A stretch of 64,000 nucleotides of DNA from Peptococcaceae bacterium UBA5755 (lineage in GTDB: Bacteria; Bacillota; Dehalobacteriia; UBA4068; UBA5755), in NCBI GenBank assembly GCA_002419005.1, contig DIFF01000012.1, forward strand, positions 500,241-564,240, read 5' to 3'. A model generated the notes under the pieces. It was not told the origin of the DNA and made no database searches. It saw only the letters and a program-made list of their open reading frames with translations. A program made the translations under genes and the position numbers. Below, piece after piece: positions 1 to 33,094 of the stretch (position 1 is the stretch's first letter; every line of letters starts with the position of its first letter).

Positions 1-690
1 TGCTTATTTCCTTTAGACAAATCTTCAATATAATAAGCAGAATCACTCAATGTGGCTTTGCCCCCTGAATAGGAAACCTTTTTTAAGTGAGTAAAACTGC
101 TATAATCAGGCACAACAACTGGCTCGGCTGGTGTATTATTAACACGCCTAACAATATTGTCATCACTTTCCGCTGCTCCGGATAGTAAAATATCTTCGGC
201 ACTTGGCACATCTGCTTCGAGGTTAACCATATCATCCGCGTCATGGTAAATTTCCATTTGTGTAAGATCAAATTCATCCTGATCTTCGCCGGTTTGTCTG
301 ATTCCGGTAAAAACATCATAATAAGTACGTTTGGTCATTTTTAATGATACCGTGCGCTTAACTTGGTCAACCTCTCCTTCGGAACTAATCAAAATGGTCG
401 CTGCATCAGGTTTTTCGAAGGCAGCCTGGAAGGCACCTTTCCCTAAATCACCCGAGATGACACCAGATATGGTAGAGTTGCTGTCAGCAAGAAAATATTG
501 CGCTGTAATATCAGCTCCGGAACGGGCAATATACTCGGCCTGCATTTTTTTCTCACTGTCTGTCGAAAAAGTCCTTTCGGAATTTCCCAAAACCAATGCT
601 GTTTTACCTAATATCATAAGCACAACCATAATTATAATCACAAAAACAAGTGCTGCACCTTTGTTATTGGACATTATTTTCCTTATCATG
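1..690 (-). CDS. PilX_N-like minor pilin / pilus-associated protein, paralog 1. The 5' part of the gene (N-terminal ~230 aa) is shown; the C-terminus runs off the window edge.
   Basis: The reverse complement from ATG 690 reads MIRKIMSNNKGAALVFVIIIMVVLMILGKTALVLGNSE..., a hydrophobic PilX_N-type N-terminus. It is about 90% nt identical and collinear with 1251..1940 (678 nt, no indels), and the RBS is GGGAGGGGTG. Confidence 0.6.
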
Positions 691-806
691 ATATCACCCC
701 TCCTTTGCTCTTATTAAATTATACCTCAATTCTACTAATTTTCATATCTAATCTACTAAAATAATACCAAAAATTAATTTCACCCGCAATACTGCTGAAA
801 TCATAG

Positions 807-1940
807 TTATTTATAATATTCTCTTTTGGTATAGCCCAGGTTAACATTCGTCTCAATATCGTCAGTTAAAGGAACATAATAAAACACTCCGTGTGGTCCG
901 TTAGGATTTCCTCTGTCAATAATTTCGCCAATCATTGCTCCTCGTATGATTGTCTGGTCTGATTGAATTTCCAGCGTGGCATCTGGCCCATATATATATG
1001 CGGTTACATCTGCATTAGACTGAAACCCTAAAATGGCTCCCGCTTCCAAATAGATAAACAATGTACCCCCGCCACCAGCATTTACATAGATAGGATTATC
1101 TATCGTACTTTCAGTACCGCTATTTCGGATATATAAGTGAACAACTCCTCCCCCGGTAATGCTGACCTGACCTTCAGAACCCCCAAAATCAAGCGAGTCA
1201 ACCACCATGGTCATTTCTCCATTTACATCTCCGGTATCAAAGGTCAAATATTCATTATTTACTTTAGACAAATCTTCAATGTAATAAGCAGGGTCACTTA
1301 ATACGGCTACCCCACCCACATAGGAAACCTGCGATAATTGAGTAAAACTGCTATAATCAGGCACAACAACTGGCTCGGCTGGTGTATCGTTGACACGCCT
1401 AACAATATTGTCATCACTTTCCGCTGCTCCGGATAGTAAAATATCTTCGGCACTTGGTAAATTTGCTTCGAGGTTAACCATATCATCTGCGTCATGGTAG
1501 ATTTCCAGTTGCGTAAGATCAAATTCATCCTGATTTTCGCTGGTCTGTCTGATTCCGGTAAAAACATCATAATAAGTACGTTTGGTCAATTTTAATGCTA
1601 CCATGCGCTTAACCTGATCAACTTCTCCTTCGGAACTGATCAAAATGGTCGCTGCATCGGGTTTTTCGAAGGCAGCCTGGAAGGAACCTTTCCCTAAATC
1701 GCCCGAGATTACACCAGATATGGTAGAATTGCTGTCAACAAGAAAATATTGCGCTGTAATATCAGCTCCGGAACGGGCAATATACTCGGCCTGCATTTTT
1801 TTCTCACTGTCTGTCGAAAAAGTCCTTTCGGAATTTCCCAAAACCAATGCTGTTTTACCTAATATCATAAGCACAACCATAATTATAATCACAAAAACAA
1901 ATGCTGCACCTCTGTTATCACACATTAGTTTCTTTATCAT
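807..1940 (-). CDS. PilX N-terminal-domain pilus-associated protein (377 aa), paralog 2
   Basis: The N-terminus MIKKLMCDNRGAAFVFVIIIMVVLMILGKTALVLGNSE is typical of Firmicute PilX_N minor pilin / tip proteins. A GGGAGGGTG RBS precedes ATG 1940. The gene lies at the end of the pilB-pilT operon. Confidence 0.65.
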   Translation of the reverse strand: MIKKLMCDNRGAAFVFVIIIMVVLMILGKTALVLGNSERTFSTDSEKKMQAEYIARSGADITAQYFLVDSNSTISGVISGDLGKGSFQAAFEKPDAATILISSEGEVDQVKRMVALKLTKRTYYDVFTGIRQTSENQDEFDLTQLEIYHDADDMVNLEANLPSAEDILLSGAAESDDNIVRRVNDTPAEPVVVPDYSSFTQLSQVSYVGGVAVLSDPAYYIEDLSKVNNEYLTFDTGDVNGEMTMVVDSLDFGGSEGQVSITGGGVVHLYIRNSGTESTIDNPIYVNAGGGGTLFIYLEAGAILGFQSNADVTAYIYGPDATLEIQSDQTIIRGAMIGEIIDRGNPNGPHGVFYYVPLTDDIETNVNLGYTKREYYK

Positions 1941-2038
1941 GATATCACCCTCCCTTTGCTATTATATTTAAATATTAAAAAGTTAAAATCCCATCTATAA
2001 TGCTTATAGATATTTTATGTATGTAAACAAGTATAAGT

Positions 2039-2743
2039 TTACTCTCCTGTTAATCCCCTCATTTTCTGAAGGCTTTTAAGTTTTATCCTTGATACCTGCT
2101 TCTGTGTCAAACCAAGCTCTTTTGCAACCTCCGCCTGGGTCATTTCTTTATGAAAAAGCCTTTCAATCACGTCTTTTTGAATACCAGTTAAATGGTATAT
2201 TAGTTGGCTTAGCAAAAGCTTATCTTCCACGGAAAGAGTAAAACTTTCTGGTTCTTTTGTTTTGATGCTGGATACCTCTAAACAGCCAAAGTGTATAAGT
2301 CCTGCACTCATCATCGGCAATATCGCTTCTGGTTGAAGGTTTAACATACCTGCCAATTCATCATTAGATACAGGTTCATCACGTTTATCAAGATTTGACA
2401 CTATGATATTATCCAGTTTTTCCTGATAAACTTCCAAATACATAGGATAATAGTATTTCCTTTCCTTCCTCACAAAGTGACGGATCTCCCCAATGATATA
2501 ATGGGAAGAATAGGTGCTGAATTTTATATTTTTTTTTATGTCAAAATTTCTGATTGCTTTTAACAGTCCTTCATAACCAGACTGGCGAATATCTTCAAAG
2601 CAGTATCCGCCACCATAAAGCTTGGCATAATGATATACAAGCCCTTTACATGCATCCATCAACACATTCAGGGATTTTTCATTTGAATCAAAAAAATACT
2701 CCTGATATATTTCATCAATATTATTAATATACTGAGTTCCCAT
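2039..2743 (-). CDS. sigma-70 family RNA polymerase sigma factor (group 3, SigF/SigB/FliA-like)
   Basis: 234 aa. The region 2 signature is FDIKKNIKFSTYSSHYIIGEIRHFVRKE. The C-terminal region 4 HTH is MTQAEVAKELGLTQKQVSRIKLKSLQKMRG. Confidence 0.75.
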   Translation of the reverse strand: MGTQYINNIDEIYQEYFFDSNEKSLNVLMDACKGLVYHYAKLYGGGYCFEDIRQSGYEGLLKAIRNFDIKKNIKFSTYSSHYIIGEIRHFVRKERKYYYPMYLEVYQEKLDNIIVSNLDKRDEPVSNDELAGMLNLQPEAILPMMSAGLIHFGCLEVSSIKTKEPESFTLSVEDKLLLSQLIYHLTGIQKDVIERLFHKEMTQAEVAKELGLTQKQVSRIKLKSLQKMRGLTGE

Positions 2744-2785: not shown

Positions 2786-3850
2786 TTACAACATGGTCAT
2801 ATATCTTTTAAAAATTTCCGGATCCACACATCTCACATAGGCTTCTTCACTGGTAATGATCTTTGATTTGGCTAATTGAGCCAGTGAATAGTCCATGGGC
2901 ATCATGCCATTTTTTATATTTGTCTGCAGAACGGTGTCTATCTGGTGGTTTTTCCCTTCACGGATCAGGTTTCTGATAGCATCATTAACTACCAGCACTT
3001 CCATAGCGGGAACAACCATCTTCCCATCCGATGATTTTATAAGCTGTTGGCACACGATACCCTGAAGGATCGCAGAAAGCTGGGTTCGGACTTGCTGCTG
3101 CTGGTGAGGTGGAAATGTATCTATAATTCTGTCAACGGTTTGGGCCGCTGTAGTAGTATGCAAGGTGGACATAACAAAGTGTCCCGTTTCAGCTGCGGAT
3201 ATGGCAGTGGAAATGGTTTCGTAGTCACGCATCTCCCCTACCATAATAACATCAGGGTCCTCACGTAGGGCAGCTCTTAATGCATTAGCAAAGCTTTGAG
3301 AGTCGCTTCCTATTTCTCTTTGATTGATCATGCATTTATTATGCTTGTGCATATATTCTATAGGATCTTCAATGGTAAGTATGTGGCACTGGCGATTACT
3401 ATTGATGTGCCCTACCATGGCGGCCAAAGTTGTTGACTTGCCGGAGCCTGTTGGTCCTGTTACCAAAAACATACCCCTGGGCTTTAAGGCTAGGGTGTTC
3501 AGTATAGGCGGCAATTTAAGTTCCTCAACCGTAGGAATTTTAGTGTTGATCATTCTTAAGGCAGCGGTACAGCTTCCCCTTTGCTTGTAAACGTTAACTC
3601 TGTAACGGCTTGTATTAGGCAATGCCCAGGAAAAATCCACTTCGCCTTTCGTTTCGAAGACTCCCTTTTTTTCCTCATTCATTAGATAATAGCAGATATC
3701 TTTTGTTTCATCTGGTGTAAGTATGCTATCTCCATAAGGAACAAGCTCCCCTCTGATTCGTAATATGGGTGGTTTAGCTACAGTAATATGGATATCGGAT
3801 GCTTTTAATTCGATAGCCCGGAGCAGAATTTCCATAAAATTATATGACAC
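2786..3850 (-). CDS. pilT: type IV pilus retraction ATPase PilT
   Basis: 354 aa with Walker A GPTGSGKST and an Asp box DPIEY. The N-terminus is similar to PilT (ASDIHI). Confidence 0.9.
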   Translation of the reverse strand: MSYNFMEILLRAIELKASDIHITVAKPPILRIRGELVPYGDSILTPDETKDICYYLMNEEKKGVFETKGEVDFSWALPNTSRYRVNVYKQRGSCTAALRMINTKIPTVEELKLPPILNTLALKPRGMFLVTGPTGSGKSTTLAAMVGHINSNRQCHILTIEDPIEYMHKHNKCMINQREIGSDSQSFANALRAALREDPDVIMVGEMRDYETISTAISAAETGHFVMSTLHTTTAAQTVDRIIDTFPPHQQQQVRTQLSAILQGIVCQQLIKSSDGKMVVPAMEVLVVNDAIRNLIREGKNHQIDTVLQTNIKNGMMPMDYSLAQLAKSKIITSEEAYVRCVDPEIFKRYMTML

Positions 3851-3978: not shown

Positions 3979-5658
3979 TTAATCTATACTATATGTAACC
4001 TTAATTAACTCATCCACAGAGGTAATTCCGTTTAAAACTAGTTCAGTGCAGCTCTGCTGTAAAGTAGTGGTGCCCTGCCTGATAGCCATCTGTTCAATCT
4101 GATCTGTAGATGCCCTTCTATTTACGAGCTCCCTGATTTCTTTGGTAACAACAAGCACCTCATGAATACCCGTTCTGCCTTTATACCCGGTAAAATTACA
4201 GGTAGGGCAGCCGGCCCCTTTGTAAAGCGGCACAGGTTCTTTCATTTTCAGCAGGAGCATTTCATCATGGGAAGGCCTGTAAGAGGTTTTACACCTTGGG
4301 CATATATTTCGGACAAGACGCTGGGCTACTACCCCTACAATGGAGGAAGAAACCAGGTAAGGCTCAATACCCATATCCACTAAACGGGCTACTGATGAGG
4401 CTGCGTCATTTGTGTGGATGGTGCTAAGCACCAAGTGGCCTGTTATGGAAGCACGAATAGCAATTTCTGCTGTTTCTGGGTCGCGTATTTCACCGATCAT
4501 GATAATGTCCGGATCCTGCCGTAAAATAGAACGGAGACCACTAGCAAAGGTTAGTCCAGCCTTCACATTTACCTGAACCTGATTAATACCTTCCAGTCTG
4601 TATTCAACAGGATCCTCAACGGTAATAATGTTTACTTCCGGTTTATTCAGTTCTTTTAGTAATGTATATAAAGTGGTGGTTTTGCCGGAACCGGTGGGCC
4701 CTGATACTAGTATTATACCATTAGGGCTTTTGGTTATTTTGTCAAATAATGACATGTTGGATTCAGAAATCCCCAAATGTTTCCTTCCAAGGACAACAGT
4801 TTGACCTCCAAGAACACGAATTACAATTTTTTCACCATATACTGTTGGCAGAAGGGATACCCGAAGATCCACATCCTTTCCATCGACGACGGTTTCAACA
4901 CGACCATCCTGAGGGAGCCTCTTTTCAGCTATGTCCATACCACTCATAATTTTTATTCTTGTTGAAATAGCTGGATGGGCTGACATGGATGAGGTCATAA
5001 CCTCTTGGAGCTGACCATCAATTCTAAAGCGGACCTTCAGTTCTGTGGCTGTGGGTTCTATATGAATATCACTGGCATTGGATTTGATAGCATGCTGCAG
5101 CAGAGAATTAATTAAGCGGACAACAGGTGCATTAGCCACTTCGCTTTCAGAAATCTCATTCAGACCTGCTATGTTCAGCTTCCCATATTCACGCTGCAAA
5201 TCCTCAAAGGCCTTCTCTGCTATTTCACTACCATAGTATCTGTCAATTGCATTAGTAATATCTTTTTTGGGAGAAATAGCCACACTGATTTCCATTCCTG
5301 TAGCATTTCTTATGTCATCCAAAGCATAAAAGTTTAGAGGGTCTGACATGACTACTGTCAGTACCTTCCCTTCCTTTTTAATAGGAATCATGTTGTGCTT
5401 CTTCGCTAAATCACCAGAAATTGTACTGGTTGCTTCTTTATCTATTACAATTGTTGTTATGTCTATATAAGGAATATGAAAGAGATACTCGAGACCTTTG
5501 TAAAGAGTCTTTTCGTCTATATAGCCCAATTGAACAAGCGTCTCTCCTAAAACAGTATTATTCCCTTTAGATACCAGCATGCCTTCTTCAAATTGAGCCT
5601 GCGTAATGGCTCCGGCTTCTATGAGTATTTCCCCTAATTTTTTTTGTTTTGCACCCAT
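3979..5658 (-). CDS. pilB: type IV pilus assembly ATPase PilB (GspE family)
   Basis: 559 aa with an N-terminal T2SSE_N-like domain (LGEILIEAGAITQAQFEEG), Walker A GPTGSGKTTT and a tetracysteine CPRC...CPTC motif. Confidence 0.9.
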   Translation of the reverse strand: MGAKQKKLGEILIEAGAITQAQFEEGMLVSKGNNTVLGETLVQLGYIDEKTLYKGLEYLFHIPYIDITTIVIDKEATSTISGDLAKKHNMIPIKKEGKVLTVVMSDPLNFYALDDIRNATGMEISVAISPKKDITNAIDRYYGSEIAEKAFEDLQREYGKLNIAGLNEISESEVANAPVVRLINSLLQHAIKSNASDIHIEPTATELKVRFRIDGQLQEVMTSSMSAHPAISTRIKIMSGMDIAEKRLPQDGRVETVVDGKDVDLRVSLLPTVYGEKIVIRVLGGQTVVLGRKHLGISESNMSLFDKITKSPNGIILVSGPTGSGKTTTLYTLLKELNKPEVNIITVEDPVEYRLEGINQVQVNVKAGLTFASGLRSILRQDPDIIMIGEIRDPETAEIAIRASITGHLVLSTIHTNDAASSVARLVDMGIEPYLVSSSIVGVVAQRLVRNICPRCKTSYRPSHDEMLLLKMKEPVPLYKGAGCPTCNFTGYKGRTGIHEVLVVTKEIRELVNRRASTDQIEQMAIRQGTTTLQQSCTELVLNGITSVDELIKVTYSID

Positions 5659-5779: not shown

Positions 5780-6547
5780 ATGATTATAATAGCAACCCCG
5801 GTTCTGATTTTTATTTTTGGTCTTCTTATTGGCAGTTTTCTCAATGTCTGCATCTTCCGAATCCCTCTTAAGAAAACGATTGTAAAGGGACGTTCTTACT
5901 GTCCTTCCTGTAACTCGCCGATCCCATGGTACTGCAACATACCTTTGTTCAGCTACATATTTTTAAAAGGCCGCTGCCGTAACTGCAAAGAAAAAATATC
6001 TCTGATCTATCCCACAGTGGAGCTTTTAAACGCTGTGCTATATCTTCTGATCTGGAAAGTCTACGGATTGACTGTACCGGCTATATTTTTTGCCGCCCTT
6101 TTTTCTATTTTAGTCATCATATCCTTCATTGATTTTAAATATCAGATCATACCCGATGGACTTGTCCTTACAATTTTAATTTTAGGTGTTGCCAACGGAA
6201 TTTATCAGACCACTGTTTTAAATGTCCCCTGGTATAATTGGGTTGTCGGGTTTTTCGCCGCTTCAGTACCCCTATTGATTCTTGGCTTGATTTTCCCAGA
6301 GGGCATGGGCGGCGGAGATATTAAACTAATGGCGGCTACCGGTCTTTTTATAGGTTGGAAGCTAATTCTCCTCTCTCTATTTATTGGTGCCCTCTACGGC
6401 GGGATCGTATCAATATTTGTCATACTTGTTAAAAAAGGTTCTCTGAAGACAGCCTTACCTTTTGGTCCAATGCTGTCTTTGGGTATCGTTACCTGTGTAC
6501 TTACTGGCAATCAACTGCTATCCTGGTATCTTTCAATCTTCCTTTAA
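5780..6547 (+). CDS. pilD: prepilin peptidase PilD (A24 family)
   Basis: 255 aa polytopic membrane protein. It carries the N-terminal Zn motif CPSCNSP...CRNCKEK and the catalytic Asp-containing segments GGGDIKL. The RBS is GGTGG. Confidence 0.9.
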   Translation: MIIIATPVLIFIFGLLIGSFLNVCIFRIPLKKTIVKGRSYCPSCNSPIPWYCNIPLFSYIFLKGRCRNCKEKISLIYPTVELLNAVLYLLIWKVYGLTVPAIFFAALFSILVIISFIDFKYQIIPDGLVLTILILGVANGIYQTTVLNVPWYNWVVGFFAASVPLLILGLIFPEGMGGGDIKLMAATGLFIGWKLILLSLFIGALYGGIVSIFVILVKKGSLKTALPFGPMLSLGIVTCVLTGNQLLSWYLSIFL

Positions 6548-7854
6548 AGAGCCTTTTTTTTAACTCTTTTTCTGATCTTTGCCAGTTGTTTTGTACGCAT
6601 ATCTGGCTCCAGACCAATTTTAATGTCCAGCATTTCATTTATATACAGAACATCAATGCCTTCATAGCTAAGTTTTACACAGGGCTCCTCTATTTCCTCT
6701 ATGATGAAATCCCTGGCAGTGAGATTCTTTTTATCCAAAAGTATAAAGGATGGCAAATAGGGCTTCGGCTTTTCCTCCCCTGTTTCTAGTGACCAAGCTG
6801 CTTCATTTTCCTTGCTCATCTTCCATTTTACCATTTCCTCTTCAAATGCTGACTTTTCATAAAAAGACGAGTAGGGATTAGTTGAGATATCGGCTATTAC
6901 AATGTCACCAAAATCAATGACTAGCAGGTTTTCTTCCTTGATTTCATAGCTGCTTCTTACCTGATTATAATATTTTCTCAAAACAATAAATTTTTTGGGA
7001 AATTCGCTGGAATGAAGTTTCAGCTGATAAAGGTAGCACCACTGGGCAAATTTATCTCTTAATTCGGTATTATAAAATTCCCAATCAGGTGAAATATATG
7101 GCTGACCTATTTTATGCATAATTGCTAGATTTATCTCATCATTAAATTCAACAATGCTAAAGGATGAAAGATAATTAGCTATAAGCTCATGCAGCCGGTC
7201 TTCAGTGTGGTGCTCTATCGCATTTATTATCCACTTGCGATTGTTCATAAGCCCCTCTTTAGATGTATTTCCTAAATAAGCTATCACCACTTCTTCTGCA
7301 AATGGGCTCTGATTGCTAATACTAAAGGCCCGAAAGGACTCATCAATATCCATTTTGTATTCATTAATGGCTGCACAAGAGGCAGCTATTTTGTTTTTTT
7401 CAGCCCCAAATCTTCTGACAAAAGCAGCTTCCCGTGAGGTGTCATTTTTTTCTTCTGTTTTTTGGGCGACCTCTTTTAATACAAAAATTAGCCCTGCTGA
7501 CATAAAATTATACTGATACAATATTGTCAGCAGTTTTAAAATTCTTGGGGAAATTCTGATGGCCAGGATCTCAGATGCTCTTTGAATTTCATCAGAATCT
7601 GCCGCATTCGGAAGATCCAGTATAAGTCCCTCCAGCTCTTTTCCCTTTAGACTGACAGCGTAACCTTCGATATCAGATTTTGGCAATTTCATTGCCTCCC
7701 TCAGGACATTCAAAGGAAGAATACCCCGCTCTATAAAAGGAAATTCTTCTAGAGTAAAGAACCGGCCTCTTAAACTGTTTATAGTGGCTTTAAGGTCCGC
7801 TGGCTCAAAAGTGTTATGCAGTTGTTCACCTAAGTCGCTCATGAGCATCTCCAT
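6544..7854 (-). CDS. hypothetical soluble protein (436 aa), co-transcribed with the ZorA-like gene
   Basis: A long ORF that begins 5 nt after the stop of the upstream 730-aa gene. There is no TM segment and no recognisable catalytic motif. The start is uncertain: three in-frame ATGs fall within 15 nt. Confidence 0.5.
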   Translation of the reverse strand: MEMLMSDLGEQLHNTFEPADLKATINSLRGRFFTLEEFPFIERGILPLNVLREAMKLPKSDIEGYAVSLKGKELEGLILDLPNAADSDEIQRASEILAIRISPRILKLLTILYQYNFMSAGLIFVLKEVAQKTEEKNDTSREAAFVRRFGAEKNKIAASCAAINEYKMDIDESFRAFSISNQSPFAEEVVIAYLGNTSKEGLMNNRKWIINAIEHHTEDRLHELIANYLSSFSIVEFNDEINLAIMHKIGQPYISPDWEFYNTELRDKFAQWCYLYQLKLHSSEFPKKFIVLRKYYNQVRSSYEIKEENLLVIDFGDIVIADISTNPYSSFYEKSAFEEEMVKWKMSKENEAAWSLETGEEKPKPYLPSFILLDKKNLTARDFIIEEIEEPCVKLSYEGIDVLYINEMLDIKIGLEPDMRTKQLAKIRKRVKKKAL

Positions 7855-7859
7855 TTATT

Positions 7860-10052
7860 TTATCTCTTGCTCAATGCTTCAGGCAAGGACTCAACGGCAT
7901 CGCTGATGCTTTCGACAGTGTTAGCTATCCTCTGCGTCAGTTCCGAAAGACCGCTGTCAAATTCACTGAAGGTTACCCGTAAACCTTCTTGTATTTTGCT
8001 GCTGAATTCACCCACGGAAGCCTGAAGATTGTTTGAAAGATCTGTAATATCCATATTGATTTCCTTAGCATATAAACCAATGCTTCTAGCCTGTTCATCA
8101 AAGGATTGAAGAAGATCAACAGTATTATCCTTATACTTTTCTAATATCTCTGCATTGGCACTTGTATTTTCCTTCATCATAGCACCAATATCTTCTGTGA
8201 TTCTGGCGATGATGCCTTTCATCTGATAATCCATATCATCTAAGGTTTTAAGGGTACTGCCCTCCAAACGGGAGAAATATGTATCGTAGTCACCTCTCAG
8301 ATTCTGCGCCTGCTCTGTCAACATGCTAATGGCTTCTGCATTATCTGCCGTAGCTTCTTTAATACCATGAGCGATCTCTCTACCTGCATTCGTCATAGCT
8401 TCATTCATTCGTTCGGTGATGTTATCCATCATGTCAGAGATCATACTATTCATCTTCGTGTACTGACTCATAGTTTCGTTGACTACGGCTTCCAAATTGG
8501 CCTGGGATAGTTTTATGCCCTCCGACATTCTGATCTGTGTTTCGTTGGTTTCCTTAGTAAATTTGAAAGCATCATTGCTGAAGGTTACGGTCTGTTCCGT
8601 GAGCTTGTCAACCGTATCGGCCATCATCTGTACATGCTGATTTAGGATCTGATTGTTTTCAACAGCTTTGCTTTGGATTTCTTTGGTCTGTGCAATAGTC
8701 ATCTCCTGAACTTCAGCAGAATTGATTAGGATTTTTGCCGATTCCTCAAAAACATTACGCTGTTCATTCAGCATAACTGACAGATTTTCAATATTAGTTG
8801 CAAGTTTTATATTAAGCTCACCCATCAGGGTTTGGATATTCCCGATCTCCTGATTTAAACTAGTTACATTGTTATGCAAGGTACAAGTGAGTGATTCAGT
8901 AAAAGATGTAGTAATAGCTATCATCTGCTGGTTTTGCTGGTCGATTGTATTAGCAATATGCTCATCCTGGAGGGCTATAGAATTGGCTGTTTGCTCTTTT
9001 TGCAGCTCAATACTGCTTTTAGTGGTCTCCATCAGCTCCGCAACATGCTTACCAAGGCTTAAATTAAGCTCTTCCATTTGACCTTGTACATTACTAACGG
9101 TTATAGCAAGGCTAAACATCTTTTGTTCTAAAGCTTCGATTAGCCGGTCTGCAAAAGCTGCTGTCATGCGCTCCATACCATTTTCCTGAAGCTCCAGTGT
9201 CTTGTTCATGGTTTTATCGAGTGTTTTTTCAATATTTTGCAAGGCTGGAACCAGATTGCTGCGCACGATGATCTCAACAGAATTTTCCAAGACAGGAAGC
9301 AAGACATCATCAACAATAGTATCAAACTTTTCTACTATTTTTTGGGTTGCTGCCTGGTATGCTTCCTGATTTTTCTGGGTAGCTTCTAAAAGCATAGCAA
9401 CCTCTGCTTTTGCAACAGGGAGCACTCTGTTAAAGGTATCAATAAACCTATGGTACTCCGTTTTTGTACTAAAATACATTTTTTGGTCCCGCATGGTAAA
9501 AATAAGCTCACCAAGACAAAGGAGTATAAAAAGAACACCTCCAAGGGCTAAAGCATCAAATATAGCTCTTGGCTGAACAAAGTAAGCTAATCCAACCGGC
9601 AAAACAAGGGTAACAAGACTGAGGATCCAAAAGCTTTTCCACAGGGAATTTAACCTGCTTCTGCAGCCCGGGACTTCTACCATAGCATCAAAATCATAAA
9701 AGGACTGGCCATCAGGGATGAATTCCCCTTTATAGTTTTTTTCTAGCTGCATCAGCATCCTCAGCCAAGCTTCCAGAAAATATGGGGGCGCCATTCTAAC
9801 TACCATCTCATCCATAAAAAAGATGTTTTCTCTTTTACAGTCTTTTATTTTTGCTCCATCGTCGGCCAACCTTTTAAACGATTTGCCAATTTTCTTTAGT
9901 TTTCCCGTATCATATTGTGAGTAAAAAACAGCCCACATAATAATGGCAATTAAAACAGGCACCAATGCCGCAATATATACGACCGGTTCAAGTGTTGTAA
10001 TAATAGAAACCAGTGACAGATTCATCTGGCAACTCCTCCCCAAAATTGGCAA
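7860..10052 (-). CDS. membrane protein with a TolQ/ExbB/MotA-like 3-TM N-terminal domain and a ~540-aa coiled-coil tail (ZorA-like architecture)
   Basis: The likely true start is ATG 10025, preceded by GGGGAGGAG. The N-terminal TM helix is followed by a ~95-aa loop and two adjacent TM helices with motifs LPVGLAYFVQP and FDALALGGVLFILLCLGELIF. The remainder is heptad-rich and Q/E/N/T-rich with no catalytic motifs. Confidence 0.55.
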   Translation of the reverse strand: MPILGRSCQMNLSLVSIITTLEPVVYIAALVPVLIAIIMWAVFYSQYDTGKLKKIGKSFKRLADDGAKIKDCKRENIFFMDEMVVRMAPPYFLEAWLRMLMQLEKNYKGEFIPDGQSFYDFDAMVEVPGCRSRLNSLWKSFWILSLVTLVLPVGLAYFVQPRAIFDALALGGVLFILLCLGELIFTMRDQKMYFSTKTEYHRFIDTFNRVLPVAKAEVAMLLEATQKNQEAYQAATQKIVEKFDTIVDDVLLPVLENSVEIIVRSNLVPALQNIEKTLDKTMNKTLELQENGMERMTAAFADRLIEALEQKMFSLAITVSNVQGQMEELNLSLGKHVAELMETTKSSIELQKEQTANSIALQDEHIANTIDQQNQQMIAITTSFTESLTCTLHNNVTSLNQEIGNIQTLMGELNIKLATNIENLSVMLNEQRNVFEESAKILINSAEVQEMTIAQTKEIQSKAVENNQILNQHVQMMADTVDKLTEQTVTFSNDAFKFTKETNETQIRMSEGIKLSQANLEAVVNETMSQYTKMNSMISDMMDNITERMNEAMTNAGREIAHGIKEATADNAEAISMLTEQAQNLRGDYDTYFSRLEGSTLKTLDDMDYQMKGIIARITEDIGAMMKENTSANAEILEKYKDNTVDLLQSFDEQARSIGLYAKEINMDITDLSNNLQASVGEFSSKIQEGLRVTFSEFDSGLSELTQRIANTVESISDAVESLPEALSKR

Positions 10053-10262
10053 AATTTTACTGTATAAAGCGGGTTTATCTTTAAGTTAGTTTTTATTAAA
10101 ATTAGGATACTGTTGTATTTAATAAAAATTTTTAATAAATTTAGAAAAAAATGTCTATTATTTTTTTAATATGGTATAATTTTATTGTTAAATAGTCAAC
10201 TTTCTTTAGTTTTTTAAAAAAAGAATATTGACCCAACATTAATAAAGAATAGGAGGAATTTT

Positions 10263-10673
10263 ATGAACACATTAATTAAAAGAAGCAGAAAGTTAAAAAC
10301 CCGTAAAGGCTTTACATTAATTGAACTAATTGTTGTTATTGTTGTTATTGGCATTTTGGCTGCTATAGCAATCCCGAGATTAGCAGGGTTCACCGACACA
10401 GCTAAATCAGCTGCTGTTGAAGCAGATGCAAAAACAATTACAACTTCAATGTCTGCCTTATATGCAGAAGACCAAACCATAGATCTTACCACTTTTGCAG
10501 GTACATATGATGCAACAGATGCTCTTGGAAAATTGACCGGCCCTTTCTCTGGTACGATATCTAACGTAACAAACAGTAGCGGAAGTATTGGTTTTACTTA
10601 TGCGACAGATAAATTTACAGTAACTGTAGCTGATGGTACTGTTGGTAAAGCAACCGCTGTAGTAGCACCGTAA
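10263..10673 (+). CDS. pilA: type IV (major) pilin / pseudopilin with a class III signal peptide
   Basis: The leader MNTLIKRSRKLKTRKG precedes FTLIELIVVIVVIGILAAIAIP (cleavage G|F, Glu+5). The RBS is AGGAGG. A T/S/A-rich C-terminal domain follows. Confidence 0.85.
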   Translation: MNTLIKRSRKLKTRKGFTLIELIVVIVVIGILAAIAIPRLAGFTDTAKSAAVEADAKTITTSMSALYAEDQTIDLTTFAGTYDATDALGKLTGPFSGTISNVTNSSGSIGFTYATDKFTVTVADGTVGKATAVVAP

Positions 10674-10693: not shown

Positions 10694-10727
10694 TTTATAT
10701 TTTCTAGAGGCAGATTTTATACTGCCT
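10694..10727 (+). terminator. rho-independent terminator after the pilin gene
   Basis: The sequence CTAGAGGCAG-N9-CTGCCTCTAG forms a hairpin and is followed by TTTTTTATT. Confidence 0.7.
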
Positions 10728-10991
10728 CTAGTTTTTTATTATTTTATGTTGTGGTTATGATATTTCTATGACATGATTCTAACATATATTAAACAAGTTT
10801 TCACTAGTTTTTTTATGGAAGTTTTTGGTAAAAATTTTATTTTAGAATGTCTAAGTAATTTTAAAACAAAAAACAACAGACGCAAGGTTACACCTTGAAC
10901 CTGCTGTTTTTTAAATTCATTTGGCAATATCTAATATTCAAATTTTGCTTCCTAATGCGTTATTACTAAAAGAGGTCCTTGTTCTTTTAAC

Positions 10992-11276
10992 TTATTTTTC
11001 TTGTTGTTGCATTTGTTGATAACATTCTCTGCAATAAACAGGGCGATCATTAACCGGACGGAAAGGTACTTGAGTTTCTTTACCGCAAGACGCACAAACT
11101 ACATTGAACATTTCTCTGTTGTTGTTGCGTTGGCGTTTACGGGCTGCACGGCATTCCGGGCAACGAGCAGGATCATTCTGAAAACCTTTTTCAGTATAAA
11201 ATTCCTGTTCGGCTGCAGAAAAAACAAATTCTGCTCCGCATTCTTTGCAAGTAAGGGTTCTGTCTTCGAAAGTCAT
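10992..11276 (-). CDS. zinc-ribbon domain protein (two CxxC...CxxC pairs)
   Basis: 94 aa with the motifs TCKECGAEF...RCPECR and CASCGKETQ...YCRECY. Confidence 0.6.
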   Translation of the reverse strand: MTFEDRTLTCKECGAEFVFSAAEQEFYTEKGFQNDPARCPECRAARKRQRNNNREMFNVVCASCGKETQVPFRPVNDRPVYCRECYQQMQQQEK

Positions 11277-11664
11277 TTTACTTCACTCCTTCAAATGGTG
11301 TGCCTAATTTTACTTTGCAGGTTAATCCACTTGTTTCCATTAGAAGGAGCAAGGAAATCCTGAGCTGTAAAACAATAGGTTAACCCCATTATATTCTTTG
11401 TTTTGATAAAATGCAACTATTTCTTAGTAACTTTTTAAATTAAAGCCCTCTTAAACATAAAGAAACCCCCAAAACCATATGTGGAAAATATTACAAGTTA
11501 TAATTAAATAGTGCTACTATATATAGCTGGCGGTTTATTGCTTTTGGGTAAATAGATGCCCAGCTTGAAAATGTTTTACTAATAAAATAAAAATATAAAA
11601 GCTTGAAAAATAGAAAATTAGATGATACAATTAACATGATATTTTTATTTCTAGGAGGTTGCAC

Positions 11665-11862
11665 ATGAAAGGTAAAGTAAAATGGTTTAATGCAGAAAAA
11701 GGTTTTGGTTTCATCGAAAGGGAAACTGGTGGTGACGTTTTTGTTCACTTTTCCGCTATTCAAAGCGATGGCTTCAAAACCCTGGATGAAGGTCAAGAAG
11801 TTTCCTTCGACGAAGTGGAAGGCGCTCGTGGCCCTCAAGCCGCTAATGTACAAAGACTGTAA
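11665..11862 (+). CDS. cspA: cold-shock protein (CspA family)
   Basis: [18 protein letters not shown]...VFVHFSAI contains the RNP1/RNP2 motifs. A GGAGG RBS lies 6 nt upstream of ATG 11665. The 5' leader is long. Confidence 0.9.
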
Positions 11863-12005
11863 TATGGCTTAGCTGCATTTCATATAGTCTTTACAAGCAA
11901 AAAAAGCTCCGCAAAAGTGGGGCCCTTTTTTGTTTGCTATTAGGTGGTTAAAAACTATTCTTTTGTGTTATAATTATTATTTAGAAATGACAAGGTGGTG
12001 ATGAT

Positions 12006-30940: not shown

Positions 30941-32101
30941 CTATTTTAAGCCAATTTCTTTAAGATATTTGATTGCTCCGGCATGAAGCGGCATAATATA
31001 TTCGCCAAAATTAGCTAGCCTTTCCGGAGTGAATTCGGCTGTGCCGGGGTGAATATTCATCCAGTCTTTTTGGTGGGTAAACATGGTTTTAACGATTTGA
31101 TATATAGTGTCCTCTGAAACCTGGTCGTTGGTTAAAATACAGGTTCTGACAGCCACCACGGGCACATCTTCTTCATTGCTTTTATATGTTCCGCCTTTGA
31201 TGACCCTGTTATAAAGGATGGGCATATCTTCGATGATCTTTTGCATATATTTTGGCCCGATGGAAATTAGTTTTGCTTTTTCTGCCTGAGCAAGCTCTGT
31301 TACGCCCCCGGCCGGAATGCCAGCCAGGTATATGCCCACATCTACCGTGCCATTAGACAAAGCTTCCGTGGTTTCTTTCATATTCAAAAAATATTCGTCA
31401 ATATCATCATAGCTCATGTCATAAGCCTTTAAAATACCAGGCACAGCTACCATGGAGGTGTAGGAACCGGAAGAACCGACCCCCACTCTTTTGCCTTTTA
31501 AATCTCCTATGGAATTGATGCCAACATCTGTTCTAGCCACAACATGCACGAAGGATTTTTGGCCAACCATCATCATCCGCAAGCTGGTAAGTTTTCTATC
31601 AAATGGGTTTTGGCCAAGATAGGCATACTTAGCAATATCAGCAAGCACAAAACCCATTTGGCATCTGTTGCTGGCCACCAGCTTGGCATTTTCTACCGAG
31701 CCGGAGGTAGTTTCAACCGAGGCACTTGCGTTGTCCATATATTGCTCGATGATCTTCCGCATGCCGCGGGCATGGATATAGCTTGTGCCGCCTTCCTGAG
31801 AACCAGCAATTTTTTGGGCTTTGGTATATTCCGCTATCAGTATTCTTGCCGCATCAAAATCAACTTTTTCATTTGCAGCAAGCCTTTTAATTAAAGCAAT
31901 GTATGGCTCGTTTACCGCATCTTCGGTAATTTGGATTTTTTGAATCAATTTGTCTAAACGCAACCTGACTGTTGGATAGGTCACACCATATTGGGTTGCA
32001 ACCTCCTTTAGGGAACCGGATGCCATGATAAAATTTTTAATAAAGGACATATCTTTATCATCTAAATTTACCATCCAATCCGGAATTATTTCTACAGCCA
32101 T
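30941..32101 (-). CDS. cytoplasmic fusion protein: N-terminal DUF2089-like HTH plus a TAXI-family solute-binding domain (putative ligand-sensing transcriptional regulator)
   Basis: 386 aa with no signal peptide and no TM. The N-terminus has LKEVATQYGVTYPTVRLRLDKLIQKI (HTH). Residues ~100-386 are roughly 50% identical to the adjacent TAXI SBP (GGTSYI, SVETTSGSVENAKLV, CQMGFVLADIAKYAY). Confidence 0.6.
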   Translation of the reverse strand: MAVEIIPDWMVNLDDKDMSFIKNFIMASGSLKEVATQYGVTYPTVRLRLDKLIQKIQITEDAVNEPYIALIKRLAANEKVDFDAARILIAEYTKAQKIAGSQEGGTSYIHARGMRKIIEQYMDNASASVETTSGSVENAKLVASNRCQMGFVLADIAKYAYLGQNPFDRKLTSLRMMMVGQKSFVHVVARTDVGINSIGDLKGKRVGVGSSGSYTSMVAVPGILKAYDMSYDDIDEYFLNMKETTEALSNGTVDVGIYLAGIPAGGVTELAQAEKAKLISIGPKYMQKIIEDMPILYNRVIKGGTYKSNEEDVPVVAVRTCILTNDQVSEDTIYQIVKTMFTHQKDWMNIHPGTAEFTPERLANFGEYIMPLHAGAIKYLKEIGLK

Positions 32102-32520
32102 TTTATTGCCTCCTTTAATATTATTAATTATAGCCTTTAATTATGTTAAAGTCAATATTAAATTTTATTTTAAAATTATTAAAATTTTTGTATTATTTTG
32201 TTTTACAAGCTAAAAGCTTATATTAGTTGTATTTTTTAACAATAAAATTTTTTATTTTAATCAGTTTTTGTAAAATTTTAAACACTTTTGTTGAATATGC
32301 CCTAATTTTTATTACAAAATTCCAGCATAATATTTATATTATCCCAAAAAAAATATAAATATTATTATCACGTTTTTAAATATTTTATAACACCCCCTCC
32401 TTATAAATATTATTCAATAAAGCCACAAAGGCTGTAGATTCCTTTCACCGGAAATCGCCAGCCTTTGTAGTTTTCTGACCAGAAAAGTAAATTTATTCAC
32501 ATATTTGCATAAGCTCTGAT

Positions 32521-32823
32521 CTACTGAATAAGCTCTATTTTTGTGGCAGTAATCTGAACTGGGTAGCTCTCTCTAATTTCCGGCAGAATCGTTATTTTTA
32601 CGGTTTGCCCAATGACAAAGTTAAAGTCGTACTTTAGCTCTTTTGCATAACTCACACTTGCTATATCAAAGCCCACATCGTCTAATGTTGAGACAAGCAG
32701 CGAGTTATCATATACTTCTTCAATCGTTGCGGTAAAAGTGATCCTGCCTTCCGTAGTTTTGCCGCAGCCGGCAAAAACACATAAAAACAAAATGCAAATT
32801 AAAAAAATTGCCGTCTTTTTCAT
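32521..32823 (-). CDS. small lipoprotein of unknown function
   Basis: The signal and lipobox are LCVFAGCG. 100 aa. Confidence 0.5.
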   Translation of the reverse strand: MKKTAIFLICILFLCVFAGCGKTTEGRITFTATIEEVYDNSLLVSTLDDVGFDIASVSYAKELKYDFNFVIGQTVKITILPEIRESYPVQITATKIELIQ

Positions 32824-33094
32824 TTTGGCACCTCCTTGAGATATTATGCATTCAGTTTCTTAGACAATTTTTAATAATCTTTTATTTTTTTTGCCAAAAG
32901 CAAAAAAATAAAAGATTGCTTATTTTTAATTTTAATAAAATTATTAATAATTTTATTAAAATTAATATTTGACAAGCCCTCTGCCAAATCCTTCTTAAAT
33001 AAAATAAAGACCCACCCCAAAAAGAATGAATCTTTATTTTACCTAAAAAACATGAAATTAACCTAATTACACGATAGGCTTTTTAATTGTTAGG

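What the first reader, a model, noticed from the sequence alone, without database searches (positions are those of the whole stretch)
6544..10052. ZorA-like stator-plus-tail protein and an unknown soluble partner sit where pilC/pilMNO normally are in the pilus locus
The 730-aa protein has the 3-TM topology of TolQ/ExbB/MotA proton-channel subunits. It has an N-terminal TM, a ~95-aa loop, and TM2/TM3 with P-x-G-L and (D/E)AL..GG..L patterns resembling ExbB TM2/TM3. It then continues into ~540 residues of uninterrupted heptad-rich coiled coil. This head-plus-long-tail architecture is what is described for ZorA of Zorya anti-phage systems. No MotB/ZorB-like partner (TM Asp plus a peptidoglycan-binding domain) is adjacent. 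The only co-operonic gene is a soluble 436-aa protein with no recognisable motif. The pair is wedged between pilD and the divergently transcribed major pilin gene. This is exactly where a canonical Gram-positive T4P cluster would carry pilC and pilM/N/O, and none of those are in the window. The pair could be a novel inner-membrane platform or motor for this pilus. It could also be an orphan ion-driven defence or signalling module hitch-hiking in the locus.
Basis: partly seen in the sequence, partly recalled or inferred. Interest (0 to 1): 0.8.

Follow-up and report, generated by a model that had tools for sequence, protein, structure and literature searches.

The report
Zorya-derived ZorA/ZorC pair in pilus locus
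Two neighbouring genes in a clostridial type IV pilus locus are diverged relatives of ZorA and ZorC of the Zorya anti-phage system, inherited together with the pilus genes but lacking the ZorB and ZorD partners, which suggests that a phage-defence motor was rebuilt into a pilus accessory, or the reverse.

Summary
Both genes are real. Gene A is 7860-10025(-), 721 aa from the ATG behind a strong RBS. Gene B is 6544-7842(-), 432 aa.

The idea that the pair replaces pilC/pilMNO is refuted. Those genes lie 1.9-5.6 kb beyond the window's left edge on the same contig.

In about 25 loci across Clostridia the order pilin(-)-A-B is fixed and flanked by pilD/pilB/pilT. No locus of this clade has ZorB or ZorD, and the GxxGT channel motif is gone. 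A sister clade in another pilus locus keeps ZorA-ZorB-ZorC.

My reading is a Zorya-derived accessory of the pilus machine that has probably lost ion-driven rotation. Its function is untested. I found nothing on this in the searchable literature.

The parts
7860..10025 (-). Gene A: ZorA-like membrane protein, 721 aa (stop codon included).
   Evidence: ORF. Start at the ATG behind the GGGGAGGAG RBS. An identical 721-aa product is called on 6 contigs.
9927..9983 (-). A, TM1 (residues 15-33).
   Evidence: Kyte-Doolittle 19-residue window scores 2.73. AF2 predicts a helix at 13-58.
9633..9926 (-). A, cytoplasmic loop between TM1 and TM2 (residues 34-131). It carries the family-wide motif N67 ... 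W87 ... (I/V)P(E/D)xxxYF ... P119xxR122.
   Evidence: Conservation. The YF...P stretch also aligns with E. coli ZorA residues 114 onward through the sister clade.
9576..9632 (-). A, TM2 (residues 132-150). The sequence FWILSLVTLVLPVGLAYFV occupies the place of the canonical PGILTxxGILGTFLGL.
   Evidence: Hydropathy. Column-by-column alignment with the canonical clade. P143 is invariant.
9498..9554 (-). A, TM3 (residues 158-176). The invariant F176-T177-x-x-D180 follows at its cytoplasmic end.
   Evidence: D180 aligns with the sister clade's invariant D187.
7863..9413 (-). A, cytoplasmic helical tail (residues 205-721, about 517 aa). It would span about 77 nm as one helix, has pI 4.5 and an 11/3 hydrophobic periodicity.
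   Evidence: Weak 'Apolipoprotein' Pfam hits and PADLOC ZorA tail hits at E=3.5e-7.
7863..8108 (-). A, conserved tail tip (residues 640-721): QSFDEQARSIGLYAKEIN...F(S)EFDSGLSEL..RIANTVESI.DAVE.LP.
   Evidence: This is the most conserved part of the tail across 29 distant relatives. It ends co-linearly with the C-terminus of ZorA1 profiles. The direct match to E. coli ZorA is not significant (E=5.6).
6544..7842 (-). Gene B: ZorC-like (EH-domain fold) soluble protein, 432 aa (stop codon included).
6595..6735 (-). B, most conserved segment (residues about 370-416): TARDFIIEE.EE.C.KLSYEGID.LYI.EMLDIKMGLEPDMR.
   Evidence: Alignment of 28 homologues. Its function is unknown.
6547..6594 (-). B, basic C-terminal tail (residues 417-432, KQLAKIRKRVKKKAL).
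   Evidence: The last 25 residues carry net charge +4 to +8 in most homologues, but not in the four most distant ones.
10026..10262 (.). Divergent intergenic region shared by gene A and the major pilin gene. It holds a sigma-70-like site at 10199-10171(-) and the RBS at 10033-10041(-).
   Evidence: consensus matches only. The divergent pilin-A arrangement is conserved in nearly all loci.
10263..10673 (+). Major type IV pilin gene (136 aa).
   Evidence: Pfam N_methyl at E=1.5e-8 and NCBIfam pilin models. A terminator-like hairpin lies at 10704-10731.
5780..6547 (+). pilD prepilin peptidase, convergent with B.
   Evidence: Pfam A24_N_bact at 1e-32 and Peptidase_A24 at 9e-19.
3979..5658 (-). pilB extension ATPase.
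   Evidence: MshEN plus T2SSE.
2786..3850 (-). pilT retraction ATPase.
   Evidence: T2SSE, 354 aa.
2039..2743 (-). Sigma-70-family factor inside the pilus locus.
   Evidence: Pfam Sigma70_r2 and r4. Homologues recur in 6 other loci.
807..1940 (-). DUF7305 large minor-pilin-like protein. A second copy, two minor pilins, then pilO-pilN-pilM-pilC follow beyond the window's left edge.

Best explanation
The pair is a Zorya type I derivative that has become a resident accessory module of a clostridial type IV pilus (T4P) locus.

Shown by tool results:
- Gene A encodes a ZorA-family protein. It has a three-TM MotA/ExbB-type head and a cytoplasmic tail of about 517 residues (about 75 nm) with the 11/3 periodicity expected for a right-handed ZorA-like bundle.
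- Gene B encodes a ZorC-fold protein.
- The pair is encoded beside the major pilin gene and next to pilD/pilB/pilT in every locus examined, alongside a complete pilC/pilM/pilN/pilO platform.
- This clade has neither ZorB nor ZorD.
- The TM2 GxxGT channel motif has been replaced.
- A sister clade in another pilus locus still has ZorA-ZorB-ZorC.

Inferred:
- By analogy with ZorA5B2, A assembles as an oligomer (probably a pentamer) in the cytoplasmic membrane close to the pilus machine.
- Without a peptidoglycan-anchored ZorB dimer and its Asp, A no longer turns as a proton-driven rotor. It acts instead as a static or mechanically gated stalk.
- The conserved tail tip docks B. In E. coli the ZorA tail tip is needed to recruit ZorD, and truncating it abolishes defence.
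- B, like ZorC, binds DNA.
- The module therefore couples events at the pilus base to a DNA-binding protein held tens of nanometres inside the cell. Candidate events are retraction, envelope perturbation, or entry of phage or transforming DNA.

I cannot decide whether the output is defence against pilus-dependent phages, handling of incoming DNA, or regulation.
For: A is ZorA-like:
- The profile of the A head finds only 67 clusters in 1.84 billion proteins, all 500-890 aa.
- Its distant members carry PGILTxxGILGTFLGL.
- Those members match PADLOC ZorA1 over the head (P0093: E=8e-33, residues 19-357 against profile 24-364).
- They match solved ZorA directly (P0095 against 8vvn_C at E=1.6e-17 and 8qyd_A at 2e-12).
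- P0095 passes NCBIfam ZorA_2 (105.2 bits against a cut-off of 100).
- hhalign of the window clade against that clade gives 99.4% probability, E=4.5e-21, over 219 columns.
- Tail periodicity is 3.65. Hu et al. 2024 (PMC11946911) describe a right-handed ZorA tail of about 70 nm.

B is ZorC-like:
- A source names the orthologue 'EH_Signature domain-containing protein'.
- PADLOC ZorC1 hits reach 1.2e-5 to 5e-5 for relatives and 3e-3 for P0037, and all are co-linear.
- hhalign to the protein downstream of a ZorA-ZorB pair gives 99.5%.

The pair is resident in the pilus locus:
- Gene order is identical in loci from Parasporobacterium, Anaerovoracaceae, Oscillospiraceae, Christensenella, Eubacteriaceae, Peptostreptococcales and metagenomes.
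- Divergence of A and B correlates with that of PilD, PilB and PilT (Spearman 0.75-0.97).
- There are no homologues on plasmids or phages.

Loss of ZorB and ZorD:
-.
- The sister locus L028 carries ZorA, ZorB1 (PADLOC E=3e-61) and a ZorC-like gene among pilM/N/O, pilB and pilC.
Against: - No direct profile hit links the window's own A head or B to ZorA, MotA_ExbB or EH_Signature models. The sequence link is transitive, through one intermediate clade.
- Foldseek against the PDB found nothing for B.
- B is acidic overall (median pI 5.7), and its basic C-terminal tail is missing in the most distant homologues. DNA binding is therefore not evident from composition.
- I could not map the EH Glu/His pair.
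- Oligomeric state, contact with the pilus machine, and A-B binding are all untested.
- TM2/TM3 keep invariant residues (P143, G162, F176, T177, D180). That is odd for a pure anchor and leaves room for an unknown central partner.
- Only 64 kb of window plus 10 kb to its left were inspected. A zorB or zorD elsewhere in the genome is not excluded.
- One relative pair (L010) has no pilus genes within 8 kb upstream.
Confidence: 0.55

Rival explanations
1. The pair is a working anti-phage guard. It would be a cut-down Zorya stationed at the pilus base because pilus-dependent phages deliver DNA there. A senses the perturbation, and B binds the incoming phage DNA and blocks it or hands it to a nuclease encoded elsewhere.
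For: - Both proteins descend from a proven defence system (PMC11946911).
- ZorC binds dsDNA, and in E. coli ZorA tail truncations abolish defence and the tip is needed for ZorD co-localisation.
- Type IV pili are common phage receptors (general knowledge).
- A and B evolve faster than PilB and PilT, at 28-62% against 71-87% identity.
Against: - There is no ZorD or other nuclease in any of about 25 loci. ZorC alone gives no protection in E. coli.
- The distribution is syntenic and vertical, not patchy or island-like.
- The pair is absent from plasmids and phages.
- Hu et al. report that Zorya is under-represented in single-membrane bacteria.
Confidence: 0.2
2. The pair is a pilus-state sensor and regulator. 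A would detect pilin load or retraction force in the membrane, much as the MCP PilJ does in Pseudomonas. It would then sequester or release B, which acts on DNA to control the divergent pilin promoter or other genes.
For: - The major pilin gene and gene A are divergent neighbours sharing one intergenic region in nearly all loci.
- A sigma-factor gene lies in many of these loci.
- Hu et al. note that part of the ZorA tail resembles the chemoreceptor signalling unit.
- B has the fold of a DNA-binding protein.
Against: - ZorC binds DNA without sequence specificity.
- B has no recognisable HTH or other specific DNA-binding domain.
- In locus L028 gene A is not next to a divergent pilin gene.
- There is no direct evidence for any regulatory role.
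Confidence: 0.15
3. A is still an ion-driven 5:2-type motor. Its central helices would be supplied by pilus proteins (for example the single-pass PilN/PilO pair) instead of ZorB, and it would add torque or force to pilus assembly or retraction.
For: - The ZorA fold is retained, and TM2/TM3 keep invariant residues.
- PilN and PilO are bitopic and always co-encoded.
- PilO has an acidic residue just before its TM helix in 11 of 11 loci: R-D-K-x-L-L, or E in two of them.
Against:
- The PilO acidic residue is juxtamembrane and followed by Lys, unlike the buried Asp of MotB and ZorB.
- In the one pilus-linked ZorB found, that Asp is already Asn. This hints that ion flow was dispensable even before ZorB was lost.
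Confidence: 0.07
4. The pair is a replacement inner-membrane platform for a pilus that lacks PilC/PilMNO.
For: No pilC or pilMNO lies inside the 64-kb window.
Against: pilO, pilN, pilM and pilC lie 1.9-5.6 kb left of the window on the same contig. They accompany the pair in every locus with enough flank.
Confidence: 0.01
5. A is a generic membrane-anchored coiled-coil protein (MCP-, SMC-, EzrA- or apolipoprotein-like) with no real relation to ZorA, and the resemblance is compositional.
For: The window protein's direct database hits all fall in the low-complexity helical tail: Apolipoprotein at 3e-7, SMC at 0.016, and ZorA tails at 3.5e-7.
Against: - The head, which has no coiled coil, carries the homology signal (hhalign 99.4% over residues 31-249).
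- The head also has the structural match to ZorA, ExbB and TolQ.
- The neighbouring gene independently matches ZorC.
Confidence: 0.02

Closest known systems
ZorA of type I Zorya (E. coli NCTC 9026 ZorA, PDB 8QYD; Shewanella ZorA, PDB 8VVN)
   Same: - Three-TM head with a cytoplasmic loop of about 100 residues between TM1 and TM2.
- TM2-TM3 hairpin.
- Almost the same size (721 against 729 aa).
- The tail starts about 25-30 residues after TM3, and tail length is similar (about 517 against about 507 residues).
- Non-heptad periodicity, consistent with a right-handed bundle.
- Co-linear, conserved tail tip.
   Different: - No direct sequence match to ZorA profiles over the head.
- The TM2 GILGTFxGL motif is replaced by LVTLVLPVGL.
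- No ZorB partner.
- Encoded in a type IV pilus locus of a monoderm, not in a defence island of a Gram-negative bacterium.
ZorC (EH-signature protein) of type I Zorya, PDB 8R68
   Same: - Encoded immediately after the ZorA(-ZorB) genes.
- Relatives hit ZorC1 EH-signature profiles.
- One orthologue is named an EH_Signature protein by UniRef.
   Different: - 432 aa, and the window protein itself hits no EH_Signature or ZorC model.
- I could not place the Glu/His signature pair.
- The C-terminal part (small beta-sheet, conserved LDIKMGLEPDMR motif, basic tail) has no assigned counterpart.
- The protein is acidic overall.
- No ZorD partner.
ExbB/TolQ/MotA ion-channel subunits of 5:2 motors (Pfam PF01618)
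   Different: - No PF01618 hit, and no conserved TM2 Gly-Thr.
- No ExbD/TolR/MotB-type partner with a TM Asp.
- A 517-residue tail is present.
Pilus-embedded ZorA-ZorB-ZorC triad (locus L028, Logan SRR35521932; proteins P0095, a 273-aa ZorB1-like protein and a 393-aa protein)
   Same: - Same protein family for A (hhalign 99.4%) and B (99.5%).
- It also sits among pilM/N/O, DUF7305, pilins, pilB and pilC.
- It also lacks ZorD.
   Different: - It keeps a ZorB1-like OmpA-domain protein and the canonical GILGTFLGL motif.
- The tail is shorter (567 aa in total).
- Its position in the locus is different.
- Its ZorB-like protein has Asn where ZorB has the proton-binding Asp.
Canonical Gram-positive type IV pilus loci (Clostridium perfringens and C. 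difficile pilA-pilB-pilC-pilMNO-pilT-pilD)
   Same: The full core set is present here as well: pilin, pilD, pilB, pilT, pilC, pilM, pilN, pilO and minor pilins.
   Different: As far as I recall (not tested here), those model loci have no ZorA- or ZorC-like genes. Here the pair is a fixed member of the locus.

Membership tests
ZorA family (Zorya A subunit) | MotA/ExbB-type three-TM head detectable by ZorA profiles | tested here: inconclusive
   Direct tests failed. PADLOC, NCBIfam and Pfam hits of the window protein touch only the tail, and a PDB profile search of the head found no ZorA. The indirect link is strong: hhalign gives 99.4% to a clade that matches ZorA at E=1.6e-17 and passes the NCBIfam ZorA_2 cut-off.
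ZorA family (Zorya A subunit) | ZorA fold of the membrane head | tested here: met
   [not shown]
ZorA family (Zorya A subunit) | Long cytoplasmic alpha-helical tail of several hundred residues with a conserved tip | tested here: met
   The tail is 517 residues, Pro/Gly-poor, with periodicity 3.65. The tip is conserved across the family. ZorA tail profiles hit at E=3.5e-7 and end co-linearly.
MotA/TolQ/ExbB proton channel family (Pfam PF01618) | Score above the Pfam gathering threshold, with the conserved TM2 G-x-x-G-T and TM3 motifs | tested here: not met
   No PF01618 hit at E<=1. TM2 reads LVTLVLPVGL where relatives read GILGTFLGL. Even the sister clade reaches only 20.8 bits against a cut-off of 22.9.
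MotA/TolQ/ExbB proton channel family (Pfam PF01618) | Partner B subunit (MotB/ExbD/TolR/ZorB) with a TM Asp, encoded adjacently | tested here: not met
   No such gene lies in the window, in 10 kb to its left, or in about 25 related loci. The rest of the genome was not available.
Type I Zorya anti-phage system (ZorABCD) | ZorB with a plug/TM Asp and an OmpA-like peptidoglycan-binding domain | tested here: not met
   Absent from the window clade. Present only in sister locus L028 (PADLOC ZorB1 E=3e-61), where the Asp is Asn.
Type I Zorya anti-phage system (ZorABCD) | ZorC with an EH-signature domain | tested here: inconclusive
   [not shown]
Type I Zorya anti-phage system (ZorABCD) | ZorD Snf2-type helicase/nuclease | tested here: not met
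   No SNF2, helicase or nuclease gene sits next to the pair in any locus table.
Type I Zorya anti-phage system (ZorABCD) | Confers phage resistance | not testable with these tools
   This needs plaque assays.
Type IV pilus machinery (accessory component) | Conserved co-location and co-inheritance with pilB/pilC/pilD/pilM/pilN/pilO/pilT and pilins | tested here: met
   The order pilin(-)-A-B next to pilD/pilB/pilT is fixed in about 25 loci from at least 6 clostridial families. Identity of A and B correlates with that of PilD, PilB and PilT. One relative pair (L010) has no pilus genes within 8 kb upstream.
Type IV pilus machinery (accessory component) | Physical or functional interaction with the pilus machine | not testable with these tools
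   This needs pull-downs, two-hybrid assays, cryo-ET and mutant phenotypes.

The most novel reading that the evidence does not exclude
The ZorA-type head-and-tail device is not only an immune sensor. It would also be an ancient accessory of type IV pili in monoderm bacteria, a membrane-embedded oligomer mechanically coupled to the pilus platform. The coupling might use PilN/PilO or pilin helices in place of ZorB. The device would report pilus retraction or DNA entry down a 75-nm stalk to a ZorC-like DNA-binding protein. Zorya defence and this pilus module would then be two branches of one envelope-event-to-DNA signalling machine, and one would have been exapted from the other.
Probability: 0.2. 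Interest if true: 0.9.

Novelty: new variant of a known kind. Interest (0 to 1): 0.75.

Why it matters
- Zorya is one of the most widespread defence systems, and its ZorA tail is an unusual long-range signalling device.
- Hu et al. (PMC11946911) report type I Zorya as a Gram-negative system that is under-represented in single-membrane bacteria.
- Here the ZorA and ZorC parts, without ZorB and ZorD, are fixed members of type IV pilus loci across Clostridia. A sister form still keeps ZorB.
- That gives a natural dissection of the system. It asks what the head-plus-tail and the EH protein do when there is no peptidoglycan anchor, no proton Asp and no nuclease.
- It adds two conserved, uncharacterised components to the Gram-positive pilus parts list.
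- It offers a concrete route to test how Zorya evolved (pilus accessory to immune sensor, or the reverse), and whether pili have a dedicated cytoplasmic device for handling DNA or sensing phage.
- One host, Parasporobacterium paucivorans DSM 15970, is in culture, so the question is experimentally approachable.

Tried and rejected
- Direct Pfam, NCBIfam and PADLOC scans of both window proteins gave only tail-type coiled-coil hits for A and nothing for B.
- PDB profile searches with the A head and the B family found no ZorA or ZorC.
- The afdb50 fold library was not available.
- A Pfam scan of 28 B homologues found no EH_Signature hit. A PADLOC scan of 10 further B homologues found no ZorC hit.
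- A profile re-search of the 5.8-billion-protein set with an extended B alignment found no new relatives beyond P0120, the L010 partner that was already in the query.
- Metagenome scans:
  - Alignments A7 and A4 had no usable conserved stretch.
  - A8 matched nothing.
  - A9 gave 9 loci.
- The window tail tip against the PDB gave E. coli ZorA only at E=5.6, which is not significant.
- The context of the P0093/P0120 pair could not be extended because the contig ends.
- I considered and rejected the PilC/PilMNO-replacement idea and the 'generic coiled-coil protein' idea.
- I considered a mobile or defence-island origin. There are no plasmid or phage homologues, and the synteny is strict.
- The rest of the window holds no motB-, ompA- or SNF2-type gene.

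Full report
**What is in the sequence**

On the minus strand there are two tightly packed ORFs at 7860-10052 and 6544-7854.

- The upstream ORF's TTG at 10052 is not the likely start. An ATG at 10025 sits 7-8 nt behind GGGGAGGAG. The resulting 721-aa protein is the product called on six public contigs. I call it A.
- The second gene most likely starts at 7842, with GGAG 6-7 nt upstream. It gives the 432-aa product called elsewhere. I call it B.
  - a divergent major pilin gene at 10263-10673(+);
  - pilD at 5780-6547(+), convergent with B and overlapping it by 4 nt;
  - then, on the minus strand, pilB, pilT, a sigma-70-family gene and a DUF7305 minor-pilin-like gene.
- The window is part of a 654-kb contig from a JGI methanogenic-culture metagenome.

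**Anatomy of A**

- Hydropathy gives three TM segments at residues 15-33, 132-150 and 158-176. A K/R-rich loop of 98 residues separates TM1 from TM2, and a 7-residue loop separates TM2 from TM3. The topology is therefore N-out/C-in, as in ExbB and TolQ.
- Residues 205-721 are Pro/Gly-poor, acidic (pI 4.5) and helical. As one helix they would span about 77 nm.
The hydrophobic periodicity peaks at 3.63-3.65 residues, close to 11/3, in A and in nine relatives. This explains the weak 'Apolipoprotein' Pfam hits. It also fits a straight or right-handed bundle, which is what Hu et al. 2024 describe for the ZorA tail (PMC11946911).
- In 15 close homologues the first 300 or so residues and the last 250 or so are conserved. 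The middle varies in length through repeat insertions.

**Is A related to ZorA and MotA/ExbB?**

Direct tests were negative.

- Pfam, NCBIfam and PADLOC matched only the tail (ZorA models at E=3.5e-7 and weaker).
- A profile of the head found no ZorA, ExbB, TolQ or MotA chain among PDB sequences.

An exhaustive hmmsearch with the head profile against 1.84 billion representative proteins returned just 67 clusters, all 500-890 aa long. When aligned, the most distant of these show the canonical stator motif PG(I/V)LTxxGILGTFLGL in TM2.

Those proteins are bona fide ZorA relatives.

- P0093 matches PADLOC ZorA1 at E=8e-33 over residues 19-357 (profile 24-364), which is the head. It also matches Pfam MotA_ExbB at 20.8 bits.
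- P0095 matches solved Shewanella and E. coli ZorA at E=1.6e-17 and 2e-12 across TM2-TM3 and beyond.
- P0095 passes NCBIfam's ZorA_2 cut-off.

Profile-profile comparison of the window clade's head with this clade gives 99.4% probability and E=4.5e-21 over 219 columns, residues 31-249. This region overlaps the part that matches ZorA.

The caveats are that the sequence link is transitive and that the model has moderate confidence.

The window clade has lost the motif. TM2 reads LVTLVLPVGL where the relatives read GILGTFLGL. P143, G162, F176, T177 and D180 remain invariant.

**What is B?**

- B has 38 homologues and no Pfam domain.
- UniRef names the Parasporobacterium paucivorans orthologue 'EH_Signature domain-containing protein'. 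EH signature is the hallmark of ZorC.
- An AlphaFold model built on 28 sequences is confident (pLDDT 86, pTM 0.77).
- Foldseek against the PDB found only generic helical repeats.
- Sequence support is weak but consistent. PADLOC ZorC1 EH-signature models hit relatives at 1.2e-5 to 5e-5 and P0037 at 3e-3, always co-linearly.
- I could not map the Glu/His signature pair.
- B is acidic overall and has a basic C-terminal tail in most members.

**Genomic context**

The claim that the pair sits where pilC/pilMNO should be fails. Extending the contig leftward shows, in order, a second DUF7305 gene, two minor pilins, then pilO, pilN, pilM and pilC, lying 1.9-5.6 kb beyond window position 1.

I then mapped pilus genes onto loci fetched through homologues.

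- The order is invariant: pilin(-), A, B, pilD(-), pilB, pilT. A second layout has pilT(-), pilB(-), pilD instead.
- pilC-pilM-pilN-pilO-DUF7305-minor pilins appear wherever the contig is long enough.
- The loci come from:
  - P. paucivorans;
  - three distant B homologues;
  - 14 GTDB species, including Anaerovoracaceae, Oscillospiraceae, Christensenella, Eubacteriaceae and Peptostreptococcales;
  - an 888-aa relative;
  - nine JGI metagenome loci.
- Identity of A and B to the window proteins tracks that of PilD, PilB and PilT across 15 loci (Spearman 0.75-0.97).
- B has no homologue on plasmids or phages.
- None of these loci has a ZorB-like or Snf2-like gene. tblastn with a ZorB-like query against all loci and the whole window gave only noise.
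- The rest of the window is housekeeping: uvrBAC, radA, GGDEF/EAL, UbiD, TRAP, Feo, MetH and ars.

**A sister form with ZorB**

Locus L028 carries P0095, from the canonical-motif clade. Its gene order is:

- pilM, pilN, pilO, DUF7305, a pilin and a large Ig-domain pilin;
- then ZorA-like (567 aa), a 273-aa OmpA-domain protein and a 393-aa protein;
- then a GGDEF/HD protein, pilB, pilC and a pilin.

The 273-aa protein is a full-length ZorB1 match (PADLOC E=3e-61). The 393-aa protein is homologous to B (hhalign 99.5%) and hits ZorC1 at 2e-5.

So a ZorA-ZorB-ZorC triad, again without ZorD, exists inside a pilus locus. The window clade is the ZorB-less version.

This ZorB-like protein reads WMSFTNVM where E. 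coli, Shewanella and Sulfuricurvum ZorB read W(I/M)SxxD(L/M)M. The proton-binding Asp is therefore Asn. The paper's figure legend uses ZorB(D26N) as a mutant in the ZorC and ZorD co-localisation assays; from memory, this mutation also inactivates Zorya defence. This rests on one sequence.

Another relative pair (P0093 and P0120, locus L010) has the canonical motif and a B-like partner. It has no ZorB between them and no pilus genes in 8 kb upstream, and its contig ends just after B.

**How it most likely works**

Shown:
- A has a ZorA-family head and tail.
- B has a ZorC fold.
- The pair has a fixed place in a complete type IV pilus locus.
- ZorB, ZorD and the channel motif are absent.

Inferred:
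- A forms a ZorA-like oligomer in the membrane near the pilus platform.
- Lacking the peptidoglycan-anchored ZorB dimer and its Asp, A is no longer a proton-driven rotor. It is a stalk projecting about 75 nm into the cytoplasm.
- Its conserved tip (F-x-E-F-D-x-G-L-x-E-L...L-P) docks B. In E. coli, ZorA tail truncations abolish defence and the tail tip is needed for ZorD co-localisation.
- B binds DNA, as ZorC does.

The biological output is open. I rank a pilus-linked accessory or sensor role first, because the pair behaves as a vertically inherited core member of the locus. A true anti-phage guard for pilus-dependent phages comes second. It is attractive, but there is no nuclease, and ZorC alone is inert in E. 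coli. A regulator of the divergent pilin gene comes third. A re-partnered motor using PilN/PilO helices is a long shot. PilO does keep a juxtamembrane acidic residue in 11 of 11 loci, but this is weak evidence.

**Comparison with the known, and novelty**

- A works like ZorA and is a diverged member of its family by fold and transitive homology. It is not a member of Pfam MotA_ExbB by that family's own threshold or motif.
- The pair is not a Zorya system. Two of the four defining components are missing, and the EH signature is unverified.
- Hu et al. state that type I Zorya is distributed across Gram-negative phyla and under-represented in single-membrane bacteria.
- Full-text searches found nothing on this arrangement. 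The queries combined ZorA with type IV pili, tried 'ZorA-like', 'ZorC-like' and 'Zorya-like', combined Zorya with pilus and Clostridia, and searched EH_Signature.
- A recent Pfam family named 'ZorA-like_t1' (PF28082) is on record for some relatives. Database curators have therefore seen ZorA-like proteins, but not, as far as I can tell, the pilus link.
- I rate this a new variant of a known kind.

**Limits**

- The head model is of moderate confidence.
- The sequence link for both proteins goes through one intermediate clade.
- Only 74 kb of the genome was inspected for zorB and zorD.
- No multimer modelling or experiment was possible.
- The number of independent loci (about 25) is modest, and some may be the same species.

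Noticed in passing
window 1-1971; L006 10001-12385: The DUF7305 minor-pilin-like gene (807-1940, -) is tandemly duplicated, and the second 377-aa copy is cut by the window's left end. The plus-strand ORFs 331-717 and 1645-1971 have nearly identical translations and are antisense shadows of that duplication, not genes.
   Followed up: partly
window 2039-2743 (-): A sigma-70-family gene (regions 2 and 4) sits inside the pilus locus between pilT and DUF7305. Homologues recur in pilus loci L013, L014, L031, L036, L038 and L039, which suggests a locus-specific sigma factor.
   Followed up: partly
L028 7569-8390: This is a ZorB1-like OmpA-domain protein inside a type IV pilus locus. Its TM helix has Asn (WMSFTNVM) at the position of the proton-binding Asp that is conserved in the three solved ZorB proteins. 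Only one sequence was seen.
   Followed up: partly
L010 8001-10957 (also L040, L011): A ZorA-like protein with the canonical GILGTFLGL motif is followed by a B-like (ZorC-like) partner. There is no ZorB between them and no pilus gene in 8 kb upstream. The contig ends 166 nt after the partner, so the context is unresolved.
   Followed up: partly
L004 6780-8929; L009 6007-7428: The junction between the minor-pilin genes and the major pilin gene carries mobile-element insertions in two species: an integrase plus an IS66 fragment in P. paucivorans, and a group II intron reverse transcriptase in L009. This looks like an insertion hotspot.
   Followed up: no
window 6544-6547: The stop codons of B (minus strand) and pilD (plus strand) overlap convergently by 4 nt. 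Locus L007 shows a similar 8-nt overlap. Transcription of A-B would therefore run antisense into pilD and on towards pilB-pilT.
   Followed up: no
window 10700-12000: This is an ORF-poor, AT-rich stretch (GC 33%) between the pilin gene and uvrB. It holds only a 94-aa zf_Tbcl-type small protein gene and a 65-aa cold-shock protein gene. GC content rises to 47% in the uvrBAC block that follows.
   Followed up: no
window 32000-34000: This is the lowest-GC segment of the window (29.7%). It surrounds a HisKA_7TM/GGDEF gene (33095-34246, -) and a 100-aa ORF with no domain.
   Followed up: no
L006 13868-14635 and PilO homologues in 10 other loci: PilO proteins of these loci keep an acidic residue two to three positions before the TM helix (R-D-K-x-L-L, or E in two loci) in 11 of 11 cases. 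The significance is unknown. I noted it only because a ZorB-less ZorA-like head might need another central partner.
   Followed up: partly
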